Of a stretch of 64,000 bases of DNA, positions 43,551-64,000 are shown piece by piece. Position numbers and translations under genes: made by a program. The stretch is from Rhizophagus irregularis (Eukaryota): assembly GCF_026210795.1 (NCBI RefSeq), contig NC_089429.1:3968001-4032000 (forward strand), in the 5' to 3' direction. Position 1 is the stretch's first letter. Each line of letters begins with the position of its first letter. Under the pieces are notes generated by a model that was not told the origin of the DNA, did not search any database, and saw nothing but the letters and a program-made list of their open reading frames with translations.

Positions 43551-44360
43551 ACGCTCTAATTTTTTTATAAAATTATGCATTTTATAACGATATTACATTG
43601 AATAAATTTAGTAAATTTTACAAGTAAATGATAATATGAAACATCATTATTCTAAACATTATACCATAATGTCAAGTGATAATAATATAAAATAAAATGG
43701 ATGTATAAAACTATAAAATGTTTGTCTAAGATATAACACTTTCAAGTTTAAAAAGTAATTATTGTTTTGTTAAAAATGGAATGGTTATTATGTGACATTT
43801 CTTCTTTAATGTATACGGCCTAAATATCTCTATATATTTGACGTTATTATACAGATCAAAAAGAATACATTTACGTAACATTTGTGTAAAGTAAGAACTT
43901 TAAAGTTTAAGCCAATTCTGACTGGTAATTTACAAAATAACAAACACATTTCTTAAAAAAATTCTGAATCAGAATACTTTTCCGGTTTTCATTTTCGATT
44001 CTGCAAAAAATTGAAAAGTTCAGGTGATAATTCAAGAAATATCCACCTATAAAAGACTAAACAATTATCAGGTTGATCAAGTTTGTGTAATACCAAATTT
44101 AATAAATTGTCTGATTAAATAATCGCGTATATTAAATGATCGCGTATATTATAAGGCTATTAATTCCTAAAAAGTCAATTTAACCACTATTTTATTTAAG
44201 ACTATTTATTTTGTACATTTTTTTTTTTTAAAAAAAAAACTTTCTTTCTGAAAGTAGAGTCTGTTGTCGGGCTGGTAGTGTGTCTCGCTACGCTCAACCC
44301 ACCTCGGCCAGGGGCCTCGCAGTACCTACATCTCCCCTCCGTGGGGTAGGAATCCCCTAT

Positions 44361-44603
44361 ATCTGTCACTATCTGTCATTAACATCTGTCATATAATAAT
44401 ATACTAAAAAAGAATGAAATAAGGGAAAAGAGAGGAAAATACGATAGAATCAGAGGGGTATGACAGATATGACGGATATGACAGATGTTTCAGAAAAATC
44501 GGGAGAGGATACTCCCAGAAAAAAGTTTTGATTTTACCCCCCCAGATCTGTCATTCTGTCATAGATCTGTCATATGATCAGGATTCAGTCTATTCATCTG
44601 TCG
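44361..44603. repeat. Iteron-like ATCTGTCA cluster (putative replication origin)
   Basis: ATCTGTCA or variants at 44361, 44371, 44384, 44546, 44554, 44565 and 44596; inverted TGAC(A/G)GAT at 44461, 44470 and 44479. Confidence 0.8.
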
Positions 44604-44772: not shown

Positions 44773-47344
44773 ATGACCACTCAAGCTCAAGTTATCCCCA
44801 AATTCGGTGAACAAACGAAAGCCTTTAGTATCAATGAGCTTAAACGGCTTATTGTCGCTGCAAAGAGTATGAGTGACCTCGATCAAGCCAAGAGGTATCT
44901 TTGCAGTTATTTCATTCCCTGTGCAGATCCTCATGGGGTTTTCTGGTGGGACCCGGATAGTAAAAGTTTGAAACACGTTATTGACAAAAATATTGGTAAA
45001 CTTATCCGTCCAATTATGAAGGTATTCTACACACAACCTGAACAAGGACCCTCTCAAAAGACCGAGTTCAACATCTACAAATGGTTTATGGTCGAGAATA
45101 CCGATGTATGTAATGCAACCTGTGATCCCCATAAACAGCGAATCTTCAGATCCTTAACCGGCCAACTCTATCTAAATATCTTCCCGGGATTCCTCCACGT
45201 CTTGCGTCCGATATCCACCTTTGAGTCTACAATTCACCTCGCGGTTAAATTTATCTTCTCTCACATTCAGGATATCTGGTGTTCGGGTGATTGGAATCTC
45301 ACTGAGTATATCATCAAGTGGTTGGCCGGTGTATCTGCTGGAAGGAAGATGTACTCGATCCTTTACCTGAAATCTGGACAGGGTTGGGGCAAAGGCATTA
45401 TAACAGATTTCATTCAGCGCAGCGTCCTAGGCACTCAACTCGTTTATAAGACCAGCGATCCTCAGACGATTCGTGGAAGTTTCAATGGGCAATTACAGGG
45501 TAAGATTCTTCTTCTTCTCGAGGAAATGCCCACGGAAAAAAGCCAGTGGAATAATCTGTATCGCTCTTTAAAGGATAAGGTAACGAGTGACATAATGGAA
45601 ATCCATGAAAAATACAAGACACCAACACATTATAAAAACTTTATGTCTACTATCGTCCTAACCAACGAAAATGCTCTCAGAGTGGATAATGATGATAGGC
45701 GCACAGTGTTCTTGGATGCGTCACCATCCCGCAAGGGAGACCTCAACTACTTCAAAAAACTCGGTGACGCTATGAAATACCCAGGCGCCAGTGAGGCATT
45801 CTATGCTTATTTGAGAGCCATTGCGAATACTTACTCAGACTTCAATGGAAATCCGCCACCCATGACAACATCCAAACAGGAACATATCATCTCAACTCTT
45901 CCACCGCTATTCCAATTTATAAAGGACACATACCTCATAGTGAAAAATTATATGACCGACCTACCTGTTCAAGAATTTTATAGGGTATATACTTCATATT
46001 GCGAAACTCGTGGCATTACACCCTTATCAAAGATAAACGCTTCTAGAATCCTATCAAATGAGTTGAGTATAAATAGTAATCGGACTTATATAAATAAAAA
46101 GTTAACCCGAGTATATAGCATATCCAGGGAGGATCTTTACAATAAATACCTCGGCAAAAACTGGATCCACGAAACAGACGAGATAGATATAGAAGGAATT
46201 GATATAGAGACTTCTAAGAAACCCGCATCAGACCCCAAAGCCTTGGAAAAGTTCTTGGCAAATATATATAATCCAGCTAACAATCCACAAGACGTACAAG
46301 AGAAACCCGCTGAGAAAAAACCCGCTGAGAAAAAACCCGAACCCGCCGAGGAAAAACCCGCTGAGAAAAAACCCGCTGAGAAAAAACCCGCTGAGAAAAA
46401 ACCCGAACCCGCCGAGGAAAAACCCGCATCTGTAATTCGCAAGACTCCTCCACCGCTTCCACCCAAGCATGACCACTTAAAAGAACGTCCACAAGAGTTA
46501 AGGGAAGAACAACCGGATCCCGATGAAGATACTAGTGAGTCAAACACCGATGAACCTATAGATAACTTCTCAGACTGTTATCTATCTGACGAGGAACCCA
46601 ACCAAGAAGAACCTATCCCCGAGCCAGATAACTACGACGTTTTAGATGACTTGCTATCTGACTCAGATTTTACAACTGTAAACCCAGCTCCTGAACAACA
46701 ACCCGAGTATCCCGCAGAATCTTCTGCATCTGTCACTAAGCCTGACCCAGAACCGGCTTCTGAAGAGCAATTTATCCCAGAACCCGACACAGAACCAGAA
46801 GTTGACCGGGATCCTGAACCAAAGGGAAGGCACTCGAGCGCACTGGGCTTGGCAAGAAAGACACCGATGGGATCGCAAACCATGGGTTAAAAATTTAAAG
46901 GACCAGGTCTTCAATGATCTCTACAATACAGGTAAGGAATTATGGGCCAAGTACCAAGATGCGTCAGACGAATATGACTGGGAAATACTCGCGTTTGAAA
47001 TAGAGGAATGTCCCACAACGCGTATTGAGGACGAGTACCAGTACTACCTTATGGAGGTAGTAGACCGCTTCAAGGACTGGATTGAATATAATGGATACTT
47101 ACCTAAAATACCTAGCCGTAAAGAACTCGCAGATTTAATAAGAATATACAAGGAGAATCGTAATGCCGAGATTATTCCCACCCCCTCTGGTTATGAAACT
47201 ATGAGGGCAGATAAGGGAAAAGCGCGAGAGATCCCTGAGGAACGTCCAAAAACTGATATGGAACGTGAATGGGAGGCCGCCAATGGAATCATCGATGACT
47301 GGGACGAAGAGGATACTGAGGGCGCTATCAACGACATATTGTAA
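44773..47344 (+). CDS. SF3/D5-like helicase with winged helix and acidic Pro-rich tail (frameshift near 46822)
   Basis: Walker A SGQGWGKG, Walker B LLLLEE, motif C VLTN, DDRR; wHTH-like region 45913-46170; ORF 46802-47344 continues it after PEPK. Confidence 0.85.
46300..46427 (+). repeat. Coding minisatellite (KPAEK / KPEPAEE)
   Basis: 15-bp units AAACCCGCTGAGAAA and 21-bp variants in tandem. Confidence 0.9.
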
Positions 47345-47429: not shown

Positions 47430-49284
47430 ATGCAATACTCAAGAATTGCCCGCACTTTACCAACACGACCTGACATCAAGGAACTTCAGTATTCCGGTGC
47501 TCGCTTTTCCAGAGGAGCTATCGCCAGACTCGGTCAGACTCTCCAGACGCGATTTCCAGATAGAAAGTTCCAGATCCCTACTTCCCTATGAAAACTGGAA
47601 ACCCGGTGGATGGACATCAGGAAACCAACCAGCCAGCCTCTTTTCACTATTAGACCATTATGATGAAGCACAACTACCGGATGACGCAGACCCTGATTAT
47701 TTTGAACGATTCATAATTTATGCAAGAGATAGTCCACCGGCCGCAGGAGGATGCAATGGGGAGCTAAATGATTGCCTGTATGAATGCCTAAAAAATATTT
47801 ACGGCACATTCTCTAAAATGCCAAAGTCAATCGAAAAGCCCGAGTATATCAAAAAGGCATTAGGTCTCAATCGCGATGCTCCCATCCCAGTTTCATGCAT
47901 GGACAAGGTTGAACAACTCGCAGGAAGTCTCGCAATTAATATTGTGGGGGACATTACCCGAATCTCTAAGAGTAAGTCCGATAGACGTGCGACTCTCATC
48001 CTGTCAGAAGGCCATTACTCCCTCGCGTTAAATCCCGGAAGACTCCACTCCAGTAAATTAGATAAAAAGCGTAATTTACCCATTGTATACCATGAAGATG
48101 GGACCAATAATGTAGTCACAATATACAACGGCAAAACGGTTAAGTCTTGCACAATTGCGCAGTTTCAAAAAACTAAGAATTCCAAAAGTTCTTTCATCCC
48201 CGTCAAGAAAAACCGTAAGACTGGAGTATATGAAACTCTTGAAGAAGCATATCAGAGAATCCACGAGGAGCGGAATTCCTTTCTACAGGAGACAAAGAAG
48301 TTCGGTTTAGGAATCGACTTATCATACCATAACTGGTCTTACAAAAGAACGGCTCTCTGGTTATTCGAACGATTAAGTGTAGGGATTCCAGCCAATGATC
48401 CTCTTGACCCGATAGAAGCAGAGTGGTTAAGTGATGCAATGATGGGAGGATTAATCTGGGCAGATAACGAGTGGAAGGGCTATGGAAGACAGTACGATGC
48501 AACAAGTTTATACCCGAGTATTCAACAATCGAATGCAAACTTTCCAATCAGACGGGGTAAATTCCAGACACTTAATGACTTTGTTGACCACAGGGGTTAT
48601 GCCTTGTATGGATTATTCCGTGCCAAGGTAAGTGGGAATAATATTCTCTTCCGACAGAATAAAAGGGGAATCTATACATTCATCGACTTACAACGAGCAA
48701 AAAAACTTGGTCTCAATATACAGTTAATACAGGATGGGAAGCCAAATGCATTGATATACGATAGAGAAGCGAGAATCCCTGGAACTGTAATATTCGGTGA
48801 GTATGTACACTTCCTCTTCAAAATTAAAAACCAGGGTGGCGTAGCTGGCCGCGTGGCAAAGCGAGTCCTCAACACATTATGGGGAGCATTATGCCAGAGG
48901 AAGCGTAATTACAAGACACTCACCGCAGATCAAACAGACCCGTTTACATTTCCAGAGGGCCATACACTCGACTCTATCATACCAGTAGGATCTGACCAGT
49001 GGCGATTCCAGTTCACAAACCCGGGTAATCCCTTCAAAGGTGAGTATCCCAGGATCGCCCCATTCTTATTAGCACGTGGTCGCAAAATCACATCTGAGGC
49101 AATTCAACCATACAAGGATAAAGTACGACGTATCCATACGGATGGATTTATTTTAGAAGAGCAGCCAGATAGCCCCGCGCTTTTCACTTGTTCAGAGAAT
49201 GCAGATACGACTCTAAAGACTTTCAAGTTTGAAACCGCGGGATACTGCCATGTGAAAAATGCGAACAAGGTTATCTGGACATGA
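47430..49284 (+). CDS. Protein-primed family B DNA polymerase-like protein with putative vOTU domain (frameshift near 47577)
   Basis: MMGG, motif A YDATSLYPS, motif B KRVLNTLWG, motif C IHTDGF; ATG at 47430 (MQYSRIAR...) joins LLPYENW after one extra base. Confidence 0.8.
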
Positions 49285-49377
49285 TTGCTAAGAACTGGTA
49301 GGTTTATTTTTTACTGACATATCGTGATGGCATAATTGAATAAACCTATGGGATATGTAATCTTACGAGATACCCAA

Positions 49378-49872
49378 ATGCAAAACACCGACGGATTAGG
49401 TAGACAAGACGATGAAAGTTTCCACGCGTGGGCTAAGCGCATTCAGAATGCTGTGCAATATTATGAGACTTGTAGTAGAATAGGTTTTCATAGGCGGCTA
49501 CCTTATCCAAGGTCTCGTCAAGCTGTATATGCTTATATTGTGCACATTAGGAGAATAGTATCACGACTACCAAATAGGTGGTACTGTACCTACTGTAAAT
49601 CTTTTATTGATCGCGGATGGGGAGCTGACGCTTTCATGGATCAAGCGGTGCGACTACATTTATATAGTTGCCCAAAGCATTTTAATTTCGACTATTATAC
49701 TCATCATGCTGAAATGATCCAGAATGCCTTTAGGAGATATATAGAAAGAAGGAACAATAAAGCGGCTAGGATAATCCAGAAAGTCGCTATCCCCTGGTTA
49801 TATAGACCAGGCTCTCCATTGATGCAAAAGGCCGAGCGACGCTTCTACTGTCTTGCAGTATCCCAAGTGTAA
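49378..49872 (+). CDS. Zinc-finger-like and IQ-motif protein
   Basis: CTYC...H...C; IQNAFRRYIERR and AARIIQK; ATG 49378 lies downstream of AATTGAA at 49334. Confidence 0.6.
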   Translation: MQNTDGLGRQDDESFHAWAKRIQNAVQYYETCSRIGFHRRLPYPRSRQAVYAYIVHIRRIVSRLPNRWYCTYCKSFIDRGWGADAFMDQAVRLHLYSCPKHFNFDYYTHHAEMIQNAFRRYIERRNNKAARIIQKVAIPWLYRPGSPLMQKAERRFYCLAVSQV

Positions 49873-49954
49873 ACCCTGAGGTTCATATTTATTTTTTCTC
49901 ATTCGAATGAACAGGTAACTGAAGATTTATATTTTTTACAAAGTACAAAGAATC

Positions 49955-50425
49955 ATGTCAACATATACCGAATTCGCAAGCATTGTTAACAGCACTGACA
50001 GCACTAGTGATGAGGTTATTTACGAGGCATCGCGCATTCAGCCTAGTGTTATCACTGACGAAACTGTCCCCAAGATTATCCGCGCATTAAAAGATACTAT
50101 AGTAGTCGCATTAGTATCTGGGTTTAGCAAAACCAGTTACCTCGTCCAGGACCACGTGAAGTATATCAAGCGAATCCAAACGGCAAATTCTCCTGTATCA
50201 TATGTGAAGTTCGTGGCCAGAAAACTCTTCCCAGATAATGCGGCATATACTGCTAAAATAGCAAAAATCCGCGAATCATACAAGAATAAACAAGCTCTCC
50301 TAGATAAGCTTGAGGCCCTCTTCGAATTGTATTATAATGCGACTAAGGACTCATCAACCGGTCCCCCAAAGCGAGCTATTACTAAAAACGAGGCTGAGAA
50401 AACCTTAACAGAACTTCTTGCATAA
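49955..50425 (+). CDS. Hypothetical helical protein (156 aa)
   Basis: Intact ORF with upstream AACTGAAGAT and downstream TATTTTTT. Confidence 0.7.
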   Translation: MSTYTEFASIVNSTDSTSDEVIYEASRIQPSVITDETVPKIIRALKDTIVVALVSGFSKTSYLVQDHVKYIKRIQTANSPVSYVKFVARKLFPDNAAYTAKIAKIRESYKNKQALLDKLEALFELYYNATKDSSTGPPKRAITKNEAEKTLTELLA

Positions 50426-50538
50426 GCGGCTCCCTGTGGTCCTACGATCCCTAGTACGAATTTAGTCTATATTTTTTATCCATGTGTAATAGGCATACAG
50501 TAATTGAAGATAGACTATAGTATAAGTAACATAACATC

Positions 50539-50965
50539 ATGTTGGACCGATTACCAGTAGAAATAGTCGAACGCATTGTCGCAAAAGATCCCGGATACTG
50601 ACCTTATTGCAGCGAGTAAGGTAGATAGAGTGTGGTGGCGAGGAAGTTCGTCGAGAGGCGTATAAGAGGTGGAAAAATTATGCCACTACGATCGGGGATG
50701 TGTACTGTGAAATCGAGCTCTCGGAAAGCATTATATAAGAGGGAAATTGACTGGATAACGTTTGAAGATGTAAACGACCTCTATAAAAGATGGATAAACC
50801 AGCTGCACGAGGGGATCAGGCTTTATATTATGGAGAAAATGCTTAGGAATGGGATGGTCGTGGACCCCCCAAGAGAGAAACCATAGAGTATGCATTAAGT
50901 GAACAAAGATGGGGAGGCGATCCTTGGGGACTGGGAGTGGTATGAATGGACTCAACAGGAGTAAG
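50539..50965 (+). pseudogene. F-box-like protein, multiply frameshifted
   Basis: Reconstructed MLDRLPVEIVERIVAKIPDTDLIAASKVDRVWW; motif at 50502; downstream frames continue into ORF 50632. Confidence 0.6.
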
Positions 50966-51485
50966 CATTTTGTACTTGACTTTCGTAGGAATTACCCTGC
51001 AGAGTCATATTTTTTAGATCCGGCCGGCATTACCGCGTAATCCCGAATTACCGAAAAAGGAAATTTATGTTACACAAGGTTCCAAACGCATTCTTACCAA
51101 ATCGATTTTTTGTGGAACGGGTATCGCACAAAAAGGAAATGATCTACGTACCGCATGAAATCACGTGACACTCTACACATTTGTTCAGGGTATCACGTGA
51201 CATGAACTCCGTTCACATTTTCTGTAATATAATCCATAGTTTTCCATGAATGCTTTTTAGGCCAATAATCCAATAACTTATTCATCAGGTATCCTCGTGT
51301 TTTGCGACAAGGACTGATGACCATGTAACCTCATCATCAGGCATCCTCGCATTTTTTGACAAGGACTGATAAGGAATGATGATAGATCTCTTACCGCTGA
51401 TCTATTGACCAAAAATTTTCGGAAAGAAAATTTTATATCTTCGTACTAACAACTCTTATATTTTACCCAACTCATACCTTCTAAC

Positions 51486-53600
51486 ATGTCTAGAAACCTT
51501 GCTAGAAGAGGTGGCGGCAGCTATAACCCTAACAGTAATAAGGCTGCTCGTCAAGAAAAGAAAATAATAAAAAACAACTCTCTGATAACTCTGGTTCCGA
51601 TAGCGATAATAATTCCCAAAAACGTTCCCGTATACTTACAAAAGACTCCATGGATGAAGACTATGAAGATTTCGTTGCCGACGCGCCGGCTGACGGTGGT
51701 TTAGTTGGTTCAACTTCGACCGCTATTCCTCAACAAAATAATTCCCGCAGCACTGCCCAAGAAAATACTCAAGCTTCTACCCCGAAAAATTCTGCTGCGC
51801 CTACTGCGCCTGGCCAAGACGCGTCTTCTGGAGCTAACGCGTCTATTCATACACCTCGAAACAAAGAAAATAACCCATCCCCTAACGCGTCCCCTAATAT
51901 GGACGTTAATGATGGTACATCGCCCTGATCAGGCTGTTGATCCCTCCCCTACCATTACCATTAATCGTCAAGATTTCCTGGCTGCGGCTGCGCCCAACTC
52001 CGCTCCCCCAAACTCTTGAGAAACTTAAAACCAATAAGGCAATTATAGAAGCCGTTAACAACTTATTTTTAGAAACGTATGAATCATATACCGGTCGTGC
52101 ACGTATGACTGGCTCGGGGACGCTAAACGTCTTATCATACATTTTCATACTGCGGAAGCTCGTGACTTGTGTGTTGGTAGCACACATTCCGACTTTCCGG
52201 ACCTTCAATTCCACCTGTACGATCCCAAACAGCTCCCGGTCCGATGAAGACCTCCGTGCAATTCAAGTAACAGATATCCCGTTCTTCATTACTAAACCGC
52301 AACTCCAATCCTATTTCAAGAAGTTTGGCAACCTCCTTACCATCCATCTTTACTCGAGGAAAGGTGCTAAGATGCAACAAGCCCGCATTGTCTATGATCA
52401 TGCCGATGCCATTTCCCGTTTCACTACTCAATGGGCAGTTTACTGCTTTTCTACCCTGCTTGCGTGTTACCCCGTGCCACTACTCCTTGGATCAAAAAGC
52501 CGCTCGTAGAGCGTTCGTGTTGTTCTCTGGACTTCCCGCTAATACTAAAGATATTCATCTCGCTCCTCTGGTTAAAGAACATGGAGCAAAAGCAATTAAC
52601 ATTCCCTTTCCCCTGAATTCTTATAAACCTAAACCTTGGGCTTATGTCACCTTCAACTCGCAGGAAACAATGGATGCCGCTATGGAGCAAACTATTGGTT
52701 TTCAAGGTCGTACTCTTCGGTGGGGTTCATCCAATGATTCGAAAGCTCTTTGCCATCGTTGTGGTAAACTTGGTTGTGCTCCTACCTCTTGCCCGCTTAA
52801 TCAACGCCGTGGTCGCTCACGTACACGTGACCCTGTGGCTGCTCTTAAAGAACGTTTCAATATTGGCCAAAAGCCCGTCCAATAGAACGCACCGCGCAAT
52901 AATTCACGTTCTCGTTCTCGATCTAAATCTCGGGATCGTTCTGCTTCTGCTCACCGTTCTAATTCCAATTCCAATAGTTCTAATACTAATGGTAATAACA
53001 ATAATAATAACAAACCCCCCTCTTCTGGTTCGCCTGCCCATGGACGTGCACCTTCGATTACCCGAAAAGGCAAAGATAGATCTGTTTCTTTTTCGTCCAA
53101 TGCTCGTGCTCCGCTCTCTGATTCGAATTCTTCTAGTGCGCCTAGAGGCCGCTCTTAACATTCTTAATGTTCTAAAGAACCTTCAACAAGATGTTGCTCG
53201 TGTGGAATCCCGCATTTCCTCCCTTGAACTAAACAACCAACGGCTTTCTGCTATAGAAGGTCATTTAGGCATTAGTCCTCCCTCTGTACCTATCATTAAT
53301 TCTGAACCTGATCAAATGGAAGAAGATCCTCCCGAAATCACTGGCACTTTAATCCAACATCCCAATGCTCCCTCATCATCTTCTGGTTCTATGAAACCCC
53401 CTTCCCCTAAATCTATTTCCAACAAGGCTCCATAGCTCGCTTGCTACTTCTAACCCTTCCCAGCAAGACGAATTGAACTCAGTTATTCAAGATCAAAAGG
53501 CGATTAAAGATACTTTACAATCGCTCACTGGTTCCATTCAAGGTTTCATTGCTTCTCTTGGTGGTTCACCCTCCGATCGAGCTTCAGCTCCTTCGCAATA
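51486..53600 (+). pseudogene. LINE ORF1 (RRM-like domains + zinc knuckle), frameshifted
   Basis: IQVTDIPF..LQSYFKKFG, WAYVTFNS, CHRCGKLGCAPTSC, RS-rich and coiled-coil tail spread over several frames. Confidence 0.75.
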
Positions 53601-53649
53601 ACTGACTTCTCACCTTTTTTTCCCCGTACTTTATTATCATTGTGCTCTA

Positions 53650-56600
53650 ATGTCAGACAATTTTAATTATGATACATTTGTTCGAAACCCACCCAACCCC
53701 GTAGATACTTATATCTTTTCTGAACATGAATCTTTATTTACTACCCCAAATTCTTCCCCTATCCCTAATTCCTTTAATATTTCATCTTTTAATGTTAATG
53801 GTCTTCGCCATAATAGTCAAATTAAATTTGAACAAATCTCAAACTTTTTTAATCTTAAACATATTACCTTTGGTGGTATCGTTGATACCCATTTAACCCC
53901 TAAACAAATTCATTTCTTATCTAAACGCCTCCCTAATTATACTGTCTTTTCATCTGATATAGATAAAACCAAACAGGTCAATTCTACTGGTGGCGTCTCC
54001 CTTTTCATTGAAAAATCCCTTGCTTCCCATGTACAAGATTTTGTTTCACATTCCTCACGAATTTTATCTGTTGACCTTTATTTTAAAGGCAACGTTAAAT
54101 TTCGTATTTTTGTGATCTATATTCCCCCTATTTCTGATTCTAAATTACGATCAGAAACTATTGATCTTCTTTTACAACTTTTGGTGCAAACTAAACAACA
54201 AAAATTTTATCATGCCATTTGTGGTGATTTTAATATGCACCTAGATACCTATTACCCTATTTACTTTAATCGCCCTGCTACCGCTTCGCAACGATCATAT
54301 CGTTTGCTACATCATCTTTTATCTCATGGCTATGAAGAAACTATTCCTGTTAACGCTTCTGACTCCTTAGGCACCTTTCACCGTGATGACCAAGTTACTC
54401 GTATAGATTATGTTTGGTCTTGCCCAATGCTAAAAGGCTTCGCTCTCACTTCTTATATCTTTGACGCCCAAGACACCTGCTCTTCGGACCACAATCCTAT
54501 CATCACGTATTTTGATGATTCACTCTTGGTTGCGTCTATCAAGGTTGCTCGTGCTAAACAACTTCAACGACAGACTCGTCGCATTTTTAAATTTGATTCC
54601 GTCACTGCTCAGCAATGGGAATCCTTTTCTACTTGTACTGACTCCTTATGCAACGTTTCTCCTTCCACCTTTTCAACATGGCACATCAATCAACAATGTG
54701 AATATTTACATTCCCGTATCGTGAAAGCTGCTAATGCCTCTCTTCCGTCTGTCAGCGGTTGGCAACCAATTTACACCTACGATGCCTAAGGATTTGGAAG
54801 CTTTAACTCAACATTATCGTTTCCTCAGCCGTCTTCTGCATTCGATACGTTTATTGCGAAAATATCCTTCCACATATTATAATAGATATGAACGTACTTG
54901 GTCCGCTCATTTCATTCGACTTCAAAAGATTCTTCATCTTTATAAGAAGGTTATTCCTTCTCCCCCTATTTTACCTACTTCTTTATCCACATGTAGGCAA
55001 GACGATTTTAAATGTTTATTGGAATCTTTAAAGTCTATCTCCAATACCCTCCATGGTTTCCTTCTTCTCAAAGAAAAAGACTTTCAGGACTCTTCCATTC
55101 GTGCCAAATTGGACGATCGGGACAACAATTTTGAAACTGATATTTCTTCCTTTATTAATTCTGCTCTTTCAAGAACTCGACGCCGTATCACTTTGGATCG
55201 TGTCTTTATTGATTGCCCTACGCATCCCAAACTTTTAACGGACCCACTCGACATTGATAACGCTGTTATCAACCATTTCCAAAATTCCGTACCTATCAAA
55301 TCGACTCCTCCTATTAACATTTCTGCTTTACCGGAAAGATGGTCTTCCGCTTATCGCCCTATGGACGATGTGGATTCCTCCATTTATAATTCTTTATTGG
55401 ATCCTCCTACTCTGGACGAATGGTTGTCTACGGTCTCTTCTATGCCTAATGACAAAGCTCCTGGTCCCTCTATGATCACTTATGAGATGCTTAAGCATCT
55501 GGGCCCTAACACTTCCGCTTTGATCTTAATCCTGGTCCAATCATGTCTTCGTACTGCAGATATTCCTGATTTATGGCGTCAAGCTATGGTTTTCCCTATC
55601 CCTAAACCTCACGAATGGAAATGTCAACTCAAGAACACAAGACCTATTACTTTACTTGAAGTAATTAGGAAATCTTTGGTTAAACTTTTTTACAACCGTC
55701 TCGCTTCCATTTTGGCTTCAAATGAAGTGCTCAGAGGAGGAAACTTCGCTGGTCTGCCTGGTGGTTCTTGTCGCGACCCTATTGTCGTTTTTGAATCTAT
55801 TATCCATGATGCTCATGTCAACAAATCGCCGCTTTGGATCCTTTCGCAAGATATTTCGAAGGCTTTCGACTCGGTTGATCTCAAGATGTTGCGTTTCGCT
55901 CTTGAACGCATTAAACTTCCTGCTTCTGCTACAAAATTTATTTTATCCCTTTTCATGAATCGCTCCAATCGCGTTTTTACTGCTCATGGAACTACTCCTT
56001 CTTACCGTGTTCGAATTGGTATAGATCAAGGCGAAGTTATCTCTCCCTTACTTTGGGTTATATATATAGACCCTTTGTTAACTGTTCTTAAGAATGAAAT
56101 GATGGATCCGTATACGCTTCATGCTCCTTTATTATCTAATCCCTTGGCTATGACCAATTCTGATGGATTACGTATCAATAACTTGGTCTTTATGGATGAT
56201 TCCACTTTAATTTCATCATCCAAATCCGGAATGGAATCGATGCTCTCTATTACGGAAGAATTTTATCAAATTAATAATACTTCCGCTAATCACAACAAAT
56301 ATGTTTTAATTACTAATTCGTTGCCTTCCACTTCAGTTCCTTCACCTTCTCCTGTCGTGTTTGACTTACATTTATCTGGATTGAACAAAGTTCCTTCCAT
56401 TTCTATTGTGCCCATCTCCATGAATAGCTCTTTCCGCTTCCTGGGCGTCTGGTTCAATGTCGCTGGTTCTCGCGATTTTGTTAAAAAGCAAGTTGCTAGA
56501 GAATGTAACTCTTTCGCTGCTACCGTTCGTCCTGCCAAATTATCTGCTAAACAAGTTGTCTATTTGCACAACACCGTCCTTATCCCGAAATTGGAATATC

Positions 56601-59272
56601 GCATGCAAGTCACTCACCTCTCCGAATCTGAATGTGCCTCGGCAACCAGTAGTATTCGTTCCATGGTTAAACATAAGGCCAATTTTTCACGTGTACTCCC
56701 AGATTCTATTTTGTTTTTATCTCAAGGCTTGGGATTGATTAATTTATTTTTTCACCAATCACAAACACATTTAACTAATTTATTTTTATTAGCTAATTCT
56801 TCTTCTTCTTTTATGAAAAATTTATTTTTCTATAGATTACGTTTAATTCAATTTTCTTTTTTGATTCTTATTTCTCCGTTGTTAGTTAAAGATTGGACTA
56901 TATGGTCTAAACTTTTGCTTTTAAGCAGGATTATATCGCTTGCACTATTGCTCTCCTGACTGCCACTCCTTTCAAGTTGTCGTATTCTCCACTTTCAGCT
57001 TTGCCTAACCTTACTATATCCGATGGTCATACGCCTTTATTTGAAATAATGACCCCAAAGATTTTTATCTCTTACTTCCGACGTCTAAGAAGTCTGCAAC
57101 TCTATTACCTATCTCAATTTATCACGCCTCAAGGAACCCATATGATCACTTGGAATGTTTATCTTTCCAGCTTATCAAGTAGGAAAGGTCATCGAGTCCT
57201 CCCGCATAAGTGGTTCAATGACATTCATCAAAATGTCACCGTTCCAAATTCCAATTCTCTACTCTTGGATCAATTCTCTTCCGAAGCCGTTCCTTCAGGC
57301 GTTGATTTGGTTCCTGCCTTTGGTTCCTCTAGAAAATCCATGAAATGGATCGTGTCTTTGGACGAAGATGGTTCCCCCTTTATTTGGAAAACAGCTCGGC
57401 AAACAACAATATTCTTGCAAGATTGTCCATTGGACTTCTGATTGTGTGACTCGACCTAATGATGTTATCACGCTCACTCCTTGTCCTGGTTGTTCTAAAC
57501 ATATACCGGTTACCCATACTAAAAGTAATCCTACAGATGTTACTCCTTTATGTATCATCCCAAAACTTTCTCCTCTTAGATCTTTAATTCTCCCGACAAC
57601 GCAGGAGCGTATTAGACATGATACCTCTACTATTACTTCTCCTTTCACTTGGGCGGACCTTGATGAAACTGTAAGATCATATTATGGTCGTTTGGACACT
57701 CAACCTAATTTTTCACAAGTAGAGATGGTTACTCCTCTCCTACTCTTTCTTCTTCCTCTTTGGGCTCGGCTGCTTCTCTCGCTTTTGCTGCCTCACCGTT
57801 AGCGACTCCTCCTAATAACCATTATTGTTTTTATACTGATGGTTCTTTAATTAACCTTGGCACTCCTGATGTTTCTATGGGTTGGTCTTGGGTTCAAGTC
57901 CTCGATGGCGCTGGTTTTTTCCAATCTATCGCTGCTTACGCTCATGGAATTATTCGTAACTGGCCTTCCTCTACGAAGGCTGAAATTGCCGCTATACATG
58001 CTGCTCTTACAGTCACTCCTCCCTTCTCAACGGTCGACTATTTATACTGACTCTCAATCTGCCATAGATGGTCTTCGTCTATGTGCTACCTTTTCTTATT
58101 CCAATAGTAGGCTCTATTACAAGACCACCAATTTTGAACTTTGGGCTATTATTGAACGTCTCATTTTCTCTAAATCTTTATCTGTCACGGCTGTTAAAGT
58201 GAAAGGTCACTCTGGTAATTTCTACAATGACTACGCGGACTCATTGGCCAATTCTGCGCATACTTCCTCTTCAGCAGTTCTTCTTTCTGATTTGGATCAA
58301 GTATCTCCTCACGATTTCTTATTAAAATATGATGATATTTTATGCGAATCCAACCCACGACGCCTATTCAAGCAATATTCGCAAATGCTGTGGATGCATA
58401 GACTAACGCGTTTATCACGTTTTAATTTCACCATTGATTTATCTTTTACTTCAGATTTCGTGATTGATTGGGATCTTACCTGGTTTTCGCTCAATTCTGA
58501 ACCTCAACATGATGCCTCTTTTACTCGAGCTCATGCTTCCTCTCATCGCACCTTCAAATTCAAACTCTTTTTGGAAGATTTGCCTACTTTGGAACATCTT
58601 AAAAGAATTCGCCCGGACTTGTATATCGACATTTTATCATGTCGTTCATGTCTCGACTCCAAGGAAGATTTCATGCACCTTTTTATGTGCAAATGTAGAC
58701 GAATCGCTATGGAACAGATTCTCCTCTCCTACCAACATCATTTTATCACCAAACTTCAAGAAGCTGGTGATCTCGTTAAGAAAGATCCCTCTTTACTTAT
58801 TAACAAATTTAAATCTCTTCCTTGTTGGTCCTTTTCTTCTTCAAATTGGACTTCATATAGCCTTGTCCGTGGCTGCCTTCCGAAATCCTTTGTTGAAATT
58901 TTTGAAGAACTTTCTATCCCACGTAATTCTGCGATGAAGGTTATCTCTGCCATCCACAATCACTTTATCCAAAAGATCAGAAAACGAATTTGGCTACCGC
59001 GTTCCTATGACAAATCTAAATGGGAAAATGCGATGAACATCACTCAAAAACTTAAACTTTCTCGGCCTTCAAATTTGCCAAAGTCTACGTACTTACCTTT
59101 CTCAACTTTACCTCCTCCGACCCTTTCCGACGCCGCACGTGACTCCGACGTTGATTATTTAAAGAACTCGATGAAATATGGTTTGCCTTGGTTTAATCAC
59201 TATTCGGGTTTTATGGGTCGTCTAACGGTGCAACTTACTAACAGCTTTAGCAGGGTGGTGTGTCGATTTTAA
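53650..59272 (+). pseudogene. LINE ORF2 (APE, RT, RNase H, Zn finger), few frameshifts
   Basis: FNVNGL, CGDFN, RIDY, SDH; KAFDSV, GIDQGEVISP, FMDD, RFLG; YTDGS, YTDSQ, KGHSG; CRSC...H..C. Confidence 0.92.
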
Positions 59273-59626
59273 TAATGGGCGCATTGTTCGTTGGTTTGCT
59301 TGCATAGTTGCTTCTTCTTAGGTTGGAATATATCTAGGCGGGGGATCAGGATAGTTTTAGTGTTATGCGATTTTTTCCTTTCTGAATTAATTTTATAGCT
59401 TTATTACTGTTTTGGAGACTATATAGTTTTATTTTTAGTTAATTTTATTTTTCTTTTTTGTACTTTGAAAATTTTATTTTATTTTTTTGTAAGTTCGTTA
59501 AATAATTTTAATAAAGATAAAGGCTACTATGCCATATTTGCCTTGACAAGGACTGATGACGATGTCACTTGGTTATTGTAAATTGAAGATAACAATTAGG
59601 TATGTAGACACGTACAGAAAAAAGAC

Positions 59627-60211
59627 ATGTCATACCCTTATATAACTAATCCTATAACCGGACGTCCAATCCGTGTTGGTGGAGATACCTTTAATCGAAT
59701 AGTTATGGAATCCCATGATTATATCGATGGAAGGCTTGTCCGTAGACAAACCGTACCGCCTCCACCCCAGGAACAACCTGTATATTTAAATACAGATACA
59801 GGACGCTATATTCAACACGGTACTAGAACGTATCATAGACTGGTTGAGAGTGACTACGAGGTAGTTGAGGACTACTACCTTGTTCATTCTGAAGAGGAGG
59901 AGCTTATAGATGAAATCATCAATGAAACACGCTATAATGAGGAAAATCTTGATGGCCAGCGGTTAACTTTCAATAATATACAACAAATCAGAGCCGCTAT
60001 TCAAGCTGACCAAGATGAATATGATGATTTTATCTTACAGCAGAATACGACTAACGGGACACCTTCCTCCGGTCCTTCCGGTCATCCACGAACTTTGGAG
60101 GACCATGCCCCGAGACTTGCAGAGCTTAATATTGAGTTGTGTAGGGAATGTCTCATGCCTGTAAGCCCAAGTGACTTAACGGACAAGTTGTGCAAGGACT
60201 GCGCTTCCTAA
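59627..60211 (+). CDS. Protein with two 2-cysteine-adaptor-like repeats and a C-terminal C4 zinc ribbon
   Basis: NPITGRPIRVGGDTFNRI and NTDTGRYIQHGTRTYHRL; CREC...CKDC; AATTGAAGAT at 59581. Confidence 0.65.
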   Translation: MSYPYITNPITGRPIRVGGDTFNRIVMESHDYIDGRLVRRQTVPPPPQEQPVYLNTDTGRYIQHGTRTYHRLVESDYEVVEDYYLVHSEEEELIDEIINETRYNEENLDGQRLTFNNIQQIRAAIQADQDEYDDFILQQNTTNGTPSSGPSGHPRTLEDHAPRLAELNIELCRECLMPVSPSDLTDKLCKDCAS

Positions 60212-60372
60212 TGGTGAGTCCTCCGGTCCTCTGGTCTTCCGGTCTTTCCAACGGTTGATCCCTTAATGCCAGTTATTTTTTTTTTATACAAATGACAGGT
60301 ATTTAAAGATAACAATATATAAAAAAGATTGTGAAGGATACTAAGTGAGCGAATAATCAAAGAAAGATAGCC

Positions 60373-60924
60373 ATGTCAACATCAATCGTAATAAACCAGT
60401 GTCAGAACTGTGGAGTATTCTCTGCAAAAGCGGCATATAGAGGATTATCCAGCGTGTTGTATAGACAGATTATAAAGAAGATTGGTGACGAGAGTGAACC
60501 TTTACAAGCCTTGGGACTTGCCAGGGATAAGTTGGTCCAGATTATCCGTCGGGCAAGTAATGCGGATTTTACGCAATTATTCACACAAAGACTAGATATG
60601 AAAATTATGGACGGAGATTCATACGAGGATACTAGGAAGTGGCTTCTTGAACAGCTTATAGCCATTGGATGTGACAGTGGGGAAATTGCCTTATATCAGT
60701 TCTTACGGAATATATACCCGGATGGTATTGACGAACCCTTTACTACATTCTATGAGAACTATGTAAATCATGTAAGAAATCCGATGACTAAGAACTTTGC
60801 TTCTCGAGCCTTAGGAGCTATTGGATTAAAAGCTAGGATGCTACGGATTGACTTCGAAGGACGTAAAAAAAGCGCCATGATTCTTAGGGCTTCTGCGGAA
60901 GAACTTCGTGAGATGGGTTGCTAA
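60373..60924 (+). CDS. Protein with a C-terminal winged helix paralogous to the helicase wHTH
   Basis: QFLRNIY..D.PFTTFYENY...PMTKNFASRAL aligns by eye with QFIKDTY..D.PVQEFYRVY...PLSKINASRIL. Confidence 0.65.
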   Translation: MSTSIVINQCQNCGVFSAKAAYRGLSSVLYRQIIKKIGDESEPLQALGLARDKLVQIIRRASNADFTQLFTQRLDMKIMDGDSYEDTRKWLLEQLIAIGCDSGEIALYQFLRNIYPDGIDEPFTTFYENYVNHVRNPMTKNFASRALGAIGLKARMLRIDFEGRKKSAMILRASAEELREMGC

Positions 60925-61301
60925 AGCAACCAGATTCTTACAAAATACTATTGATCCCTACTCGTAATGCTCGACGGTCCATATGACCCTTAGAAAAGAT
61001 CTGTAAAAGGACCCCGATGCCTTCTATTATTTTTTTATTATCCAAAGGGTGACTAGACTTTAGGACTTCATATCGGAAGAATAACTCCTTTACGGTCTCA
61101 GATTTTGGAATTTCAGTCTTCGCGGTCCTATCCCGTACTTTTGCTAAGAATTTTTGGAAGTCTGATCAGGGTTTTACCAGATAGTCCGTAGGCTTCCCGA
61201 AAGACGTACTTAATCCAGGTATCTGCGTTCTTAGCTATAATACCAGATACGAGGAGGTGTTTTCTCTCTTTAGGCGATGGATATTCCCGAGCGAAACTCA
61301 A

Positions 61302-62126
61302 TTAGCTGGGAGGACTTTTTGCTTCAGCTACAGCTTTCTGGCCATAAGGACTAAACTTTGATCGAACTGGGTTCAAACTCGGATCGAACGGGGATTGAAC
61401 TGAGTTCGAACTAGGATTGAACTGAGATTGATCAGTGATCGAACTGAGACTAGTATCCCATCTAACCCGAATAGATAACGGATCGCTCTTGGATCTTCTA
61501 AGATCAAATACTATAAATTCGCGTTGTAGAGTAAGGTCATCGATTACTGGAGCTAGTGACTCCGATTCTTCTGTATACTGGCGGATGATCCTCTTAGTAT
61601 CGGTCAAACTTCCGTGACCTCCATGTAGGGAAATATAATTCACATTTTCACGAATAGCCTTGGGAATGGTAAAGAATCTTTGGGCCACATAGATACACGA
61701 GATATTTTTGTGACGCCCGTGTGTAAAAAATCCAGTGATGAGATCCTGGGTTTTTTTAGGCGCATCCATCAAATCCTCGAAGATTACCACAGTAGCCTGG
61801 GTGGAGTTGAAGTCCTTAACATTTGGAATCTCACTATGGGATACTGCGGTAAACGGAATTTCTTCTTCTTTGAAAAAATCACGTACGACTGCCCACTTCG
61901 GTTCATCGAGGTATCTGCCAACTAGAATTACCGCATCACATAATATGTACCTTTCGCCATCCTCCTTTGCCTTCTTGTCTCCCATTAACAAATTAATAAT
62001 CATAGTTGTCTTACCCGAGTCAGAACTTCCTGCTACGGCAAGACGGAAAGGCCATGATGGGGCAAACTCATTACCCTGTCTCGAGTCGGTCGTGTACTCG
62101 TCCAAATTGTATACATAAAGATCCAT
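61302..62126 (-). CDS. A32-like (FtsK/HerA) genome-packaging ATPase; C-terminus probably extends to about 61050 through frameshifts
   Basis: Walker A GSSDSGKT, Walker B VVIFED, A32-type GRHKNISCIYVAQ....PKAIREN. Confidence 0.88.
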   Translation of the reverse strand: MDLYVYNLDEYTTDSRQGNEFAPSWPFRLAVAGSSDSGKTTMIINLLMGDKKAKEDGERYILCDAVILVGRYLDEPKWAVVRDFFKEEEIPFTAVSHSEIPNVKDFNSTQATVVIFEDLMDAPKKTQDLITGFFTHGRHKNISCIYVAQRFFTIPKAIRENVNYISLHGGHGSLTDTKRIIRQYTEESESLAPVIDDLTLQREFIVFDLRRSKSDPLSIRVRWDTSLSSITDQSQFNPSSNSVQSPFDPSLNPVRSKFSPYGQKAVAEAKSPPS

Positions 62127-62157
62127 TTGAATTTTATTCTATCTTAGTTTAAATACG

Positions 62158-62862
62158 ATGTCGACACCAATTGCAATTTATACTCCTTCAGAGCCTACTG
62201 GACCGCCTCCTAGGGATTTGCGTGATATGAATAATATACCATTAGTTGCGGTAATTAAGGATCTAACAGATTTTTTAACTGTCAGTGATCGCATGGTTGT
62301 TAATCGAGATGTACAAAATGCAAACCATCGTCTTAAACATGCTCTTAATTTATTAATTCATCGCTGTAGAGAAACATACGAAGAACGCGATATATTAAAA
62401 GCAGAACGTGATCGATCTCGAAAAGAACGTGATGAATTACAAGATGAACTCGAGGTTCAAACGGGTTTGTTAGGTCTTACACAAGATGAGCTAAATAACG
62501 TACAAGATACTATTACTAGTTTAGAAGCTAATTTGGCTGAATTGGAACATGAGTTTGGTGGTATGCGGACGACTAATCGTCGTCTTCAGCAGCAATATAA
62601 TCTTATGAGAGGAGAACGTAATAGAGCTATAGGTGAACGTAATAGAGCTATAGGCGAGCGTGATGTGGCACGAAATCGGCTTGTATATGCCAATAATCGG
62701 GTTCTTTTTGGAATTCGGACATTGGGACGTCTTAGGAATCGACTTTTCCAACAAATAGCCGCTCTGCGTATCCAAGTACAATGGTTTCGGATTAGACAAT
62801 TGAACCCTCCTCCACCTCCTCTCAACCATCCACAAAATACGATATGGCTGCCGTTGGTATAG
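62158..62862 (+). CDS. Coiled-coil protein, probable N-terminal part of the Gag-like gene
   Basis: Heptad-rich ORF with RNRAIGE repeats ending in poly-Pro; overlaps the next ORF by 19 nt. Confidence 0.65.
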   Translation: MSTPIAIYTPSEPTGPPPRDLRDMNNIPLVAVIKDLTDFLTVSDRMVVNRDVQNANHRLKHALNLLIHRCRETYEERDILKAERDRSRKERDELQDELEVQTGLLGLTQDELNNVQDTITSLEANLAELEHEFGGMRTTNRRLQQQYNLMRGERNRAIGERNRAIGERDVARNRLVYANNRVLFGIRTLGRLRNRLFQQIAALRIQVQWFRIRQLNPPPPPLNHPQNTIWLPLV

Positions 62863-64000
62863 CTGCCCCCATATTTCATGGTCGGGAAGATGAAGATCTT
62901 AATCTTTTTATTGATAACTTTTTAGGGTATATTAATACCGTTGGTATTGATCCATTGGACGATGCCGGTGCGCCTCCGGGTCGGGTGCGAGCAATGGGGG
63001 TTCTTCGTAGCTGTATGAGAGATGAAGCGGCGAGGTGGTTTGATGCAGAACTTACTGGAAAAAATTGGGAACTCTCGAATATTCGGTTAGTGGCTACTGC
63101 AAATGGTGGAGCCGGTGCTACTCGCCGAGCGTTCAGAGCTTTAGCTGTTCCTGAGGTTGCTAATGGATTACATGTTGTACTACTTACTCCCGGGTCTGAT
63201 GCTGATGTATATTCAAGGGTTGCAGGTAATGCGGCGAGAACCGTTGGAGAAACATTTTTCCCATCACGCGCTGATATCGTTAGAACGAATTTTAAAGTTG
63301 AAGAGCAGTGGAGGCGTGCGGGCGGACGTCCTACTCATCAACCCGTTAATGGGTTGGGAGATCATGGAGGTCCATTCAATGCTGCTGCCCAGAATCAACC
63401 GATAGTCTTACAGGGGATTCTCCTGGATCAAGCATTTATGCATATGCGCACAAATTTTCCAACCGTCGTGGAAGAAAGACTTCAAATACGATTTAGTAAC
63501 CTTTACCAGGAACAAGGTGAACCTGTTCGATCTTACTATAAGCGAGTTGAGAGGGCTGGGGATATTGTAGGATATAATCGAATTATGGTTACTGACCAGT
63601 TCTATAGAGGACTTTTGCCGGAAAACGTTATTGAAGCTTCCAGAATCGGGGCGGCACCTCTTAATATATTAATCGATAGATTGAGTGATCTTGAGCGACG
63701 AAAGGGCGAAATGTTCTATGGATTACAAAGGCGTCAGGGTATTGAAAAAGCTAAAAAAGAGGAATTGGCTGGCTATACTCATCCCGTGACTCCACATGAA
63801 GGTGCTGTAATACAAAGGTCAACAGACGTTATTACTCAAGAACGATTACAAGAATTGCTCCAGCCGCAGCCGAGGAACTTACCAAGAACTTCCAGGCACA
63901 ATTTAAACAATTACAAGCATCTAAGCCAGTTCGTAAACCACCGGTCTATAGACAACAGATTAAACCTATTCGGCCGAAGCCACGGCCACGCGTTGTTCAG
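62844..64000 (+). CDS. Retrotransposon Gag capsid-like protein (open to the window end; not in the ORF track)
   Basis: Manual translation has no stop: APIFHGREDEDLNLFIDNF, LRSCMRDEAARWFD, MHR-like LYQEQGEPVRSYYKRV, DQFYRGL. Confidence 0.75.
   Translation, partial: MAAVGIAAPIFHGREDEDLNLFIDNFLGYINTVGIDPLDDAGAPPGRVRAMGVLRSCMRDEAARWFDAELTGKNWELSNIRLVATANGGAGATRRAFRALAVPEVANGLHVVLLTPGSDADVYSRVAGNAARTVGETFFPSRADIVRTNFKVEEQWRRAGGRPTHQPVNGLGDHGGPFNAAAQNQPIVLQGILLDQAFMHMRTNFPTVVEERLQIRFSNLYQEQGEPVRSYYKRVERAGDIVGYNRIMVTDQFYRGLLPENVIEASRIGAAPLNILIDRLSDLERRKGEMFYGLQRRQGIEKAKKEELAGYTHPVTPHEGAVIQRSTDVITQERLQELLQPQPRNLPRTSRHNLNNYKHLSQFVNHRSIDNRLNLFGRSHGHALF

What the first reader, a model, noticed from the sequence alone, without database searches (positions are those of the whole stretch)
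61302..64000. LTR-less Gag capsid-like gene head-to-head with a DNA packaging ATPase
Seen: only 31 bp separate the ATPase ATG (62126, minus) from the coiled-coil ORF ATG (62158, plus). That ORF overlaps a Gag-CA-like frame from 62844, so there is no room for an LTR or PBS. The CA-like region has the P.F.G..ED...F start, the A..WF helix, the MHR-like Q..GE.V..Y..R and QF..GL. Known: these are Ty3/Gypsy-type capsid motifs. Inference: a retroelement capsid may have been recruited as a resident gene, and possibly as the virion shell, of a DNA element.
Basis: partly seen in the sequence, partly recalled or inferred. Interest (0 to 1): 0.9.

Follow-up and report, generated by a model that had tools for sequence, protein, structure and literature searches.

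The report
Polinton with a retroelement Gag capsid
A virus-like DNA transposon (Maverick/Polinton type) of a mycorrhizal fungus carries a retrotransposon-type capsid gene right beside its DNA-packaging motor gene, in many copies and under purifying selection; this Gag likely replaces the jelly-roll capsid reported missing from these fungal elements, which would make a DNA virus in a retrovirus-like shell.

Summary
The window holds one Rhizophagus irregularis-type Polinton (D5 helicase, PolB, A32 ATPase) split by a LINE with a 15-bp target duplication. The ORF from 62844 is predicted to fold as a two-domain retroviral/Ty3 capsid (pLDDT 86; the top 37 structural matches are all CA) with a 120-residue insertion that matched nothing. 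Homologues continue into a retropepsin in the -1 frame and stop; none of 135 carries RT, integrase or a zinc knuckle. ATPase-gag adjacency recurs: a metagenome copy keeps the exact 31-bp gap, 19 of 40 annotated gag accession groups lie within five accessions of an ATPase (under 1 by chance), and a 32%-identical gag shares an 11,574-bp contig length with an ATPase. dN/dS is 0.20-0.27. Published tables list Glomus Polintons as lacking jelly-roll capsid, penton and cysteine protease. Likely, Gag-protease replaced that module. Particle formation and ATPase-driven packaging are untested, and DNA beyond the protease was not seen. One 2021 figure legend already names Gag and retropepsin in a PolB element, without discussion.

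The parts
44250..44520 (.). Putative left end of the Polinton-like element (approximate; partner TIR lies outside the window)
   Evidence: GC steps from 0.278 (flank) to 0.424; no inverted copy of this end elsewhere in the window
44773..46890 (+). D5-like superfamily 3 helicase with a low-complexity tail
   Evidence: Pfam DUF5906 1e-17, Pox_D5 3e-4; PHROG primase families 2e-22
47431..49284 (+). Family B DNA polymerase of the organellar/viral (protein-primed) type; 5' end frameshifted in this copy
   Evidence: DNA_pol_B_2 E 1.7e-6; frames
49348..50886 (+). Three small element ORFs (174 aa, 156 aa, a broken ~115 aa); no capsid family matched
51371..59542 (+). Inserted LINE (RRM ORF1, endonuclease, RT, RNase H); not part of the element. 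Its RT is not the gag's pol
   Evidence: Pfam; exact 15-bp target-site duplication at 51356-51370 and 59543-59557
59627..60924 (+). Two small element ORFs (194 aa, 183 aa)
   Evidence: GC 0.423 like the left half
60938..62126 (-). A32/FtsK-type genome-packaging ATPase, about 400 aa with a C-terminal extension; broken here by a stop at 61302 and a frame change near 61166
   Evidence: Pox_A32 4.6e-11; Walker A GKT, Walker B FED, GRH and Q invariant in 40 of 40 homologues; tblastn
62127..62157 (.). 31-bp divergent intergenic gap; no room for LTR or PBS
   Evidence: same 31-bp gap in metagenome copy L002
62158..62862 (+). Coiled-coil ORF (234 aa), likely the split-off N-terminal (matrix-like) part of Gag
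   Evidence: coiled-coil Pfam hits; fused in frame to CA in distant relatives P0228, P0242, P0214, P0218; dN/dS 0.41 vs L002
62844..63713 (+). Gag capsid (CA) region, residues 1-290: NTD, insertion, MHR-like segment, CTD
   Evidence: AlphaFold2 pLDDT 86.4; VIA-align Z 10.0 HIV-1 CA, 9.8 RSV CTD (rmsd 2.2, 71 aligned), 9.2 PEG10, 6.4 Ty3 NTD (74 of 74 aligned)
63057..63419 (+). About 120-residue insertion inside the CA N-terminal domain
   Evidence: folds alone at pLDDT 82.5, pTM 0.77; no match with Z>=2 among 48,161 chains; no significant viral match
63714..64000 (+). Post-CA Gag linker, frame broken near 63866; Gag end and protease ORF lie beyond the window
   Evidence: tblastn of P0074 and P0092; read laying indel table

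Best explanation
This is a resident, selected coiled-coil/Gag/protease cassette of a Glomeromycota Maverick/Polinton family, and its predicted retroviral-type capsid likely serves as the element's particle shell in place of the jelly-roll capsid module. Shown: the cassette sits head-to-head with the A32 ATPase in many copies, evolves under purifying selection, and lacks a zinc knuckle and any fused pol. Inferred from protein overlap: Gag ends on a lysine run and the retropepsin starts in the -1 frame, so Gag-PR is probably made by a -1 frameshift on an A run. Inferred mechanism: an ancestral Polinton captured gag-pro from a Glomeromycota retroelement lineage with coiled-coil, CA, CCHC and PR, and lost MCP, penton and adenain. 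The RNA-binding knuckle was lost because no RNA is packaged. PR would mature the shell, and the retained ATPase would pump the PolB-replicated linear DNA (at least 12.8 kb without the LINE) into it. My odds: residency 0.92; CA shell encloses the element's genome 0.6; ATPase-driven filling of that shell 0.45.
For: Fold: 37 top rows of VIA-align are all CA or CA-derived (Z 10.0-5.1; first unrelated row 4.9), covering both domains; Foldseek agrees on PDB and viral libraries though no row reaches E<=0.001. Linkage: L002 (gag 85% identical) keeps the order, the 31-bp gap and the frame offset. 19 of 40 gag/PR accession groups have an ATPase accession within 5 (13 of 22 GET, random mean 0.64; 5 of 16 GBC, random mean 0.10; 1 of 2 CAB). 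2 of 3 further targeted look-ups were adjacent. 12 of 21 gag contigs of 10-100 kb share their length with an ATPase contig, including an 11,574-bp ENA contig with a gag 32% identical to the window's. Selection: gag dN/dS 0.27 and 0.20; CA residues 7-71 show 9 synonymous and 0 non-synonymous changes; ATPase start 0.07. No pol: 135 of 135 hits list only protease Pfams or none; 101 have the last protease strand and all end within 15 residues; 0 of 135 have CCHC. -1 overlap: only a shift of 2 nt of 12 tested is compatible. Tree: 25 split, knuckle-less Gags fall on one side of a 95/91 branch against 11 fused or knuckle-bearing ones. Literature: P_Gi1.2 has ATPase but no MCP, penton or protease (PMC4028283 Table S1); no MCP yet found for G. 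intraradices (PMC7805220).
Against: No particle, expression or packaging datum. DNA beyond position 64000 was never seen, so a separate pol, integrase or jelly-roll gene downstream is not excluded by my calls. 21 of 40 gag accession groups had no listed ATPase within 5 before the targeted look-up, and many listed ATPase accessions (e.g. most of the P0406 cluster) have no listed gag neighbour; the lists are partial, so gag-less copies may exist. GET and GBC series come from one strain and partly count the same loci. The 11,574-bp link rests on contig length alone. The protease has D-T/S-C/A/N rather than the usual D-T/S-G in most members, so activity is uncertain. No known Gag shell has a packaging vertex (recalled). 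P_Gi1.1 lacks the ATPase. I could not show that this element is P_Gi1.2 (11,019 bp, shorter than this one).
Confidence: 0.58

Rival explanations
1. Gag-PR is resident but is not a packaged-genome virion. It forms an intracellular cage or carrier for replication or nuclear delivery in the coenocytic hypha, or a decoy that restricts related retroelements, while the ATPase does another job such as DNA segregation.
For: All linkage and selection results fit equally. Domesticated CA proteins (Arc, PEG10, PNMA, Ty1-derived Drt2) are among the fold matches. One Glomus Polinton lacks the ATPase.
Against: A maturation protease with a conserved -1 overlap is kept. ATPase motor motifs are invariant in 40 of 40 homologues although the usual capsid partners are reported absent.
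Confidence: 0.25
2. The element still encodes an unrecognised jelly-roll capsid, beyond the window or among its small ORFs, and Gag-PR is an accessory passenger.
For: The right end was not seen. Other 'capsid-less' Polintons later proved to have divergent MCPs (PMC7805220). The small ORFs were not folded.
Against: No unassigned ORF in the 11.6 kb of element in the window exceeds about 220 aa. Two analyses found no MCP in Glomus Polintons. About 1.2 kb more is already taken by the Gag end and PR.
Confidence: 0.09
3. A 5'-deleted Ty3/Gypsy or DIRS-like retroelement inserted once and was amplified passively with the Polinton, with pol downstream in another frame.
For: CA fold and gag/-1/pro layout are retroelement features. 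Gene models would not fuse a pol that lies in another frame.
Against: dN/dS 0.20-0.27 between copies. The same layout persists at 32% Gag identity. There is no knuckle in 135 homologues, and protease ORFs end in unrelated short tails without a shared slippery motif. No LTR-like repeat.
Confidence: 0.08

Closest known systems
Maverick/Polinton elements of Glomus intraradices (= Rhizophagus irregularis): P_Gi1.1 / Polinton-1_GI and P_Gi1.2
   Same: Same host lineage, similar size class (11-12 kb listed); P_Gi1.2 has the ATPase; no MCP, penton or cysteine protease found (PMC4028283 Table S1). Mavericks are expanded in Glomerales (PMC11952901 passages).
   Different: No gag or aspartic protease is mentioned in the passages and table I read. 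This element is at least 12.8 kb without its LINE; identity with P_Gi1.2 was not tested.
Unnamed 'MELD virus or related element' in Fig. 5 of Starrett et al. 2021 (PMC8502044)
   Same: [quoted passage not shown] It may well be a Rhizophagus element (inference).
   Different: The figure is not held and the supplement is cut, so the element is unidentified. Sections 3.4 and 4 do not discuss it. The legend names an NC, which this family lacks.
Ty3/Gypsy retrotransposons (Metaviridae) and retroviral Gag-Pro
   Same: Two-domain CA fold, MHR-like segment, retropepsin, likely -1 frameshift.
   Different: No LTR or PBS room, no CCHC, no RT, RNase H or integrase fused; 120-residue insertion in the NTD; linked to PolB, D5 helicase and A32 ATPase.
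Animal Polintons/adintoviruses, virophages and PLVs
   Same: PolB, A32 packaging ATPase, integration in host chromosomes.
   Different: They use double jelly-roll MCP, penton and adenain-like cysteine protease; here Gag CA and an aspartic protease occupy the structural slot.
Caulimoviruses and foamy viruses (recalled; their coat/Gag proteins appear)
   Same: dsDNA inside a CA-type shell.
   Different: They make that DNA inside the shell by reverse transcription of co-assembled RNA; they have no PolB or packaging ATPase.
Domesticated gag genes (Arc, PEG10, PNMA, Drt2)
   Same: CA fold kept without pol.
   Different: Those serve the host as fixed genes; this one is multi-copy and travels within a mobile DNA element.

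Membership tests
Polinton/Maverick | Family B DNA polymerase of the protein-primed type | tested here: met
   DNA_pol_B_2 above cut-off, E 1.7e-6; terminal protein domain not tested
Polinton/Maverick | Retroviral-like (RVE) integrase | not testable with these tools
   None in the window part; right end lies outside; no genome held
Polinton/Maverick | Terminal inverted repeats and target-site duplication | tested here: inconclusive
   Only a putative left end near 44250; no partner in the window
Polinton/Maverick | A32-type packaging ATPase | tested here: met
   Pox_A32 4.6e-11; motifs invariant
Polinton/Maverick (polintovirus) | Double jelly-roll MCP, penton, adenain-like protease | tested here: inconclusive
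   No match among window ORFs, none long enough for an MCP; small ORFs not folded; right end unseen; reported absent in P_Gi1.1/1.2
Ty3/Gypsy LTR retrotransposon | Gag with two-domain CA fold | tested here: met
   (predicted model)
Ty3/Gypsy LTR retrotransposon | 5' LTR and primer-binding site upstream of gag | tested here: not met
   31-bp gap to the ATPase in the window and L002; no repeat of 59560-64000 elsewhere in the window
Ty3/Gypsy LTR retrotransposon | CCHC nucleocapsid (common, not universal) | tested here: not met
   0 of 135 close homologues; 5 of 142 further representatives, all distant, have it
Ty3/Gypsy LTR retrotransposon | Aspartic protease | tested here: met
   PF13650/PF13975 in homologues; catalytic Asp kept, Gly often replaced; lies beyond the window
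Ty3/Gypsy LTR retrotransposon | RT, RNase H, integrase after the protease, and 3' LTR | tested here: inconclusive
   No such domain in 135 hits up to 921 aa or in 22 long or odd homologues scanned; protease ORF stops within 15 residues; downstream DNA unseen
DIRS/Ngaro tyrosine-recombinase retroelement | RT/RNase H and tyrosine recombinase with split or inverted repeats | tested here: inconclusive
   None fused to or seen beside gag in available data; downstream DNA unseen
Domesticated host gag gene | Fixed single-locus host gene outside a mobile element | tested here: not met
   Dozens of loci in one strain, beside ATPase copies

The most novel reading that the evidence does not exclude
Glomeromycota Mavericks are a chimeric kind of virus: a linear dsDNA genome copied by a protein-primed PolB and pumped by an A32 ATPase into a protease-matured shell made of retroelement Gag. 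This would be the first motor-filled CA capsid, a join of the Varidnaviria replication/packaging module with the Ortervirales capsid, and the missing capsid of the Glomus Polintons.
Probability: 0.45. Interest if true: 0.95.

Novelty: new variant of a known kind. Interest (0 to 1): 0.8.

Why it matters
Packaging ATPases of this family are thought to work with jelly-roll capsids, and Gag shells to assemble around RNA. An element that keeps the motor, drops the jelly-roll module and keeps a knuckle-less Gag with its protease suggests that capsids can be swapped between virus realms. It offers a concrete, testable answer to the stated gap that no capsid is known for Glomus Polintons (PMC7805220). 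It may also explain how Mavericks expanded in Glomerales (PMC11952901). A Gag shell that takes 13 kb of dsDNA would be of structural interest in its own right.

Tried and rejected
No genome is held for the window, so the right end, integrase and DNA after the protease could not be read. Six scans of viral contigs gave no relative with gag; the one ATPase hit, L003 (32%), has a different gene set with no gag ORF evident. The prokaryotic genome scan gave only a 35-residue match. The metagenome scan gave two short contigs, L001 and L002. Run contigs cover all 30 bins of 61100-64000 in 4 of 4 runs, but no piece spans it and depth cannot rank genes. Expression was not tested: only one holder is on record as RNA, with a share of 0.05, and I did not lay it. 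ESM Atlas on homologue P0165 gave Retrotrans_gag clusters at 0.88, a lead only. Rejected: that the window's RT serves this gag (it belongs to a LINE bounded by its own target duplication); that an intron truly joins the coiled-coil ORF to gag (gene models disagree with each other on the junction; not tested on reads). I saw no canonical -1 slippery site at the coiled-coil/gag overlap by eye. In the first tree (CA without insertion, 34 of 42 rows) the split between knuckle-less and fused Gags was unresolved. The resolved tree (36 of 42 rows) used groups in which three partial proteins (P0188, P0222, P0231) were assigned to the fused set without showing a knuckle, P0188 and P0222 after I had seen the first tree, and it has no outgroup. 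Five look-ups of earlier scan findings found nothing on this element.
Full report
Setting. The window is AT-rich eukaryotic DNA; the closest homologues of both the gag and the ATPase are annotated in Rhizophagus irregularis. From about 44250 the GC content rises from 0.278 to 0.42. The genes from there on are a D5-like helicase (44773-46890), a family B polymerase of the organellar/viral type (47431-49284), small ORFs, an A32 ATPase and the gag region. A LINE with endonuclease, RT and RNase H lies between; it is bounded by an exact 15-bp target duplication (51356-51370, 59543-59557). The two flanks are therefore one Polinton-like element, about 11.6 kb within the window, whose right end lies outside. 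No genome is held.

Observation. This copy is damaged or mis-assembled: the ATPase has a stop at 61302 and a frame change near 61166, and gag has a compensated scramble at 63176-63188 and a frame break near 63866. Contigs of four public runs show the unbroken letters at these places.

Fold. An AlphaFold2 model of residues 1-340 on 42 sequences has mean pLDDT 86.4. Against 48,161 PDB representatives, the first 37 rows are retroviral, retrotransposon or domesticated CA. Examples: HIV-1 CA Z 10.0 (rmsd 7.4, 166 aligned), RSV CTD Z 9.8 (rmsd 2.2, 71), PEG10 Z 9.2 (rmsd 2.4, 84), Ty3 NTD Z 6.4 (rmsd 3.1, 74 of 74). The first unrelated row has Z 4.9. Single Z values are modest for a helical protein, but the uniform list is not. 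Foldseek ranks the same proteins first, with no row at E<=0.001. By sequence, 24 of 42 aligned members match Retrotrans_gag at E<=0.1 and the profile finds PEG10 at E 0.0025. Residues 72-192 form an insertion in the NTD; folded alone it is confident (pLDDT 82.5) and matches nothing at Z>=2. It is also present in the knuckle-bearing relatives, so it predates the capture.

What follows CA. Among 73 + 62 homologues of 211-2000 aa, the only Pfam domains listed are aspartic-protease families. 101 contain the last protease strand, and all of these end within 15 residues; none of the 135 has a CCHC knuckle. In metagenome ORF calls Gag is a separate protein of about 450-490 aa that starts at the CA methionine and ends on a lysine run, and the protease is a separate ORF. 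The Gag end of P0010 and the protease start of P0327 can be encoded by the same DNA only at a 2-nt shift, of 12 shifts tested. This fits a -1 frameshift on an A run; it is inferred, as I saw no DNA there. The catalytic Asp is kept but the following Gly is often replaced. Distant relatives (about 25-30% identity) have the coiled coil fused in frame to CA, and 5 of 142 representatives carry a CCHC knuckle. On a 36-row tree the 25 split, knuckle-less Gags lie on one side of a 95/91 branch (caveats under Tried and rejected). I could not see the context of the fused relatives; they may be retrotransposons or another Polinton family.

Residency. L002, a metagenome copy with an 85% identical gag, has the same head-to-head ATPase, the same 31-bp gap and the same frame offset. 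L001 has a different coiled-coil N-terminus with the same junction. One run contig with 18 differences bridges the ATPase/coiled-coil gap (X1 record 3). In NCBI annotations, 19 of 40 gag/PR accession groups have an ATPase accession within five numbers: 13 of 22 and 5 of 16 in two series of one strain (random means 0.64 and 0.10), and 1 of 2 in other strains. The lists were partial (10 clusters each, at most 15 members shown), and the two series partly count the same loci. Of three further ATPase clusters looked up on contigs that lacked a match, two were adjacent to gag and one was not. Many listed ATPase accessions have no listed gag neighbour, so gag-less copies are not excluded. Gag or protease homologues also occur in R. 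clarus, Entrophospora candida and Glomus cerebriforme, and ATPases in R. clarus, context unseen. Between copies gag has dN/dS 0.27 (272 codons) and 0.20 (209 codons); residues 7-71 have 9 synonymous and no non-synonymous changes; the coiled-coil ORF has 0.41 and the ATPase start 0.07.

Mechanism. The simplest reading is module replacement. The ATPase keeps Walker A, Walker B, the GRH motif and the glutamine sensor position in 40 of 40 homologues (motif names recalled). Its usual partners are reported missing in Glomus Polintons, and none is evident in the window. Gag keeps CA and a protease but has lost the RNA-binding knuckle and pol. I infer that CA assembles a shell, the protease matures it, and the ATPase fills it with the PolB-replicated DNA. 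A rough check from recalled numbers: 13 kb of B-DNA (about 14,000 nm3) would fill about 40% of a 40-nm cavity, the scale of a Ty3-type shell, a density that would call for a motor. None of these steps is shown. Rivals are a non-virion cage or decoy role (0.25), a hidden jelly-roll gene (0.09) and a passive retroelement remnant (0.08).

Literature. Ten full-text searches found no paper that describes Gag as the capsid of a Polinton. The nearest is PMC8502044 (passages, sections 3.4 and 4, outline), whose Fig. 5 legend lists Matrix/Capsid/NC/Pro similar to retroviral Gag and retropepsin. The figure is not held and the supplement is cut, so the element is unidentified and the unseen files may bear on priority; its preprint has the same legend (passages). 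PMC4028283 (passages; Table S1 whole) lists P_Gi1.1 without MCP, penton, ATPase or protease, and P_Gi1.2 with ATPase only. PMC7805220 (passages) says no MCP is yet known for G. intraradices. A 2026 preprint (10.64898/2026.06.19.733378, passages) notes Glomus and Rhizophagus A32 ATPases and has no occurrence of 'gag'. PMC11952901 and PMC11075540 (passages) report Maverick expansion in Glomerales with no mention of gag or capsid. Term searches in PMC4409740, PMC3671162, PMC11161782, PMC4642659, PMC10120064, PMC6431247 and 10.1101/2025.06.16.659975 added nothing on this point. The 2006 founding Polinton paper is not held, I did not try the 2007 Maverick paper, and subscription journals and Repbase were not searched.

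Verdict. A real, conserved feature. The element family is known, and a Gag in a PolB element has probably been drawn once; its residency, selection, loss of the knuckle and likely role as the missing capsid appear undescribed in what I could search. New variant of a known kind; categorically new if the particle is shown. Interest 0.8.

Noticed in passing
window 51371-59542: Near-complete LINE (RRM ORF1, endonuclease, RT, RNase H) inserted in a short repeated motif of the Polinton, with an exact 15-bp target duplication.
   Followed up: partly
window 63057-63419: About 120-residue Gly/Ala/Asn-rich insertion in the CA N-terminal domain, confidently modelled, with no fold match; shared by the whole Glomeromycota Gag lineage; may form a surface protrusion.
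   Followed up: partly
window 44723, 47405, 49919, 50504, 59583: Motif (A/C/T)TGAAGA(T/C) lies 23-47 nt upstream of 5 of 10 element start codons examined; possibly an element-specific promoter. No significance test was run.
   Followed up: partly
window 60938-61300: The ATPase family has a conserved C-terminal extension of about 130 aa with no Pfam match; a candidate docking domain.
   Followed up: no
window 62834-62862: The coiled-coil ORF stops 16 nt after the gag AUG, in a conserved out-of-frame overlap where distant relatives are fused in frame; suggests reinitiation or recoding.
   Followed up: partly
window 46288-46427: 15-bp-period repeat encoding a KKPAE-type tract in the helicase tail.
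   Followed up: no
window 9918-12463 (-): Multi-exon gene with protein-kinase-like and Sel1-like stretches (by eye).
   Followed up: no
window 6490-7872, 18530-24279, 27554-30407, 33230-38905: Older LINE-like remnants, and tandemly repeated transposase-like pieces on the minus strand (by eye).
   Followed up: no
L003 1301-15942: IMG/VR contig with an A32-like ATPase, a 490-aa capsid-like ORF, a protease-like ORF and PolB (by eye); looks like an ordinary Polinton-like virus.
   Followed up: no
proteins P0228, P0242, P0214, P0218: Related Gag family with in-frame coiled coil, in most cases a CCHC knuckle and KKN-type ends; candidate donor lineage or a second Polinton family. Context unseen.
   Followed up: partly
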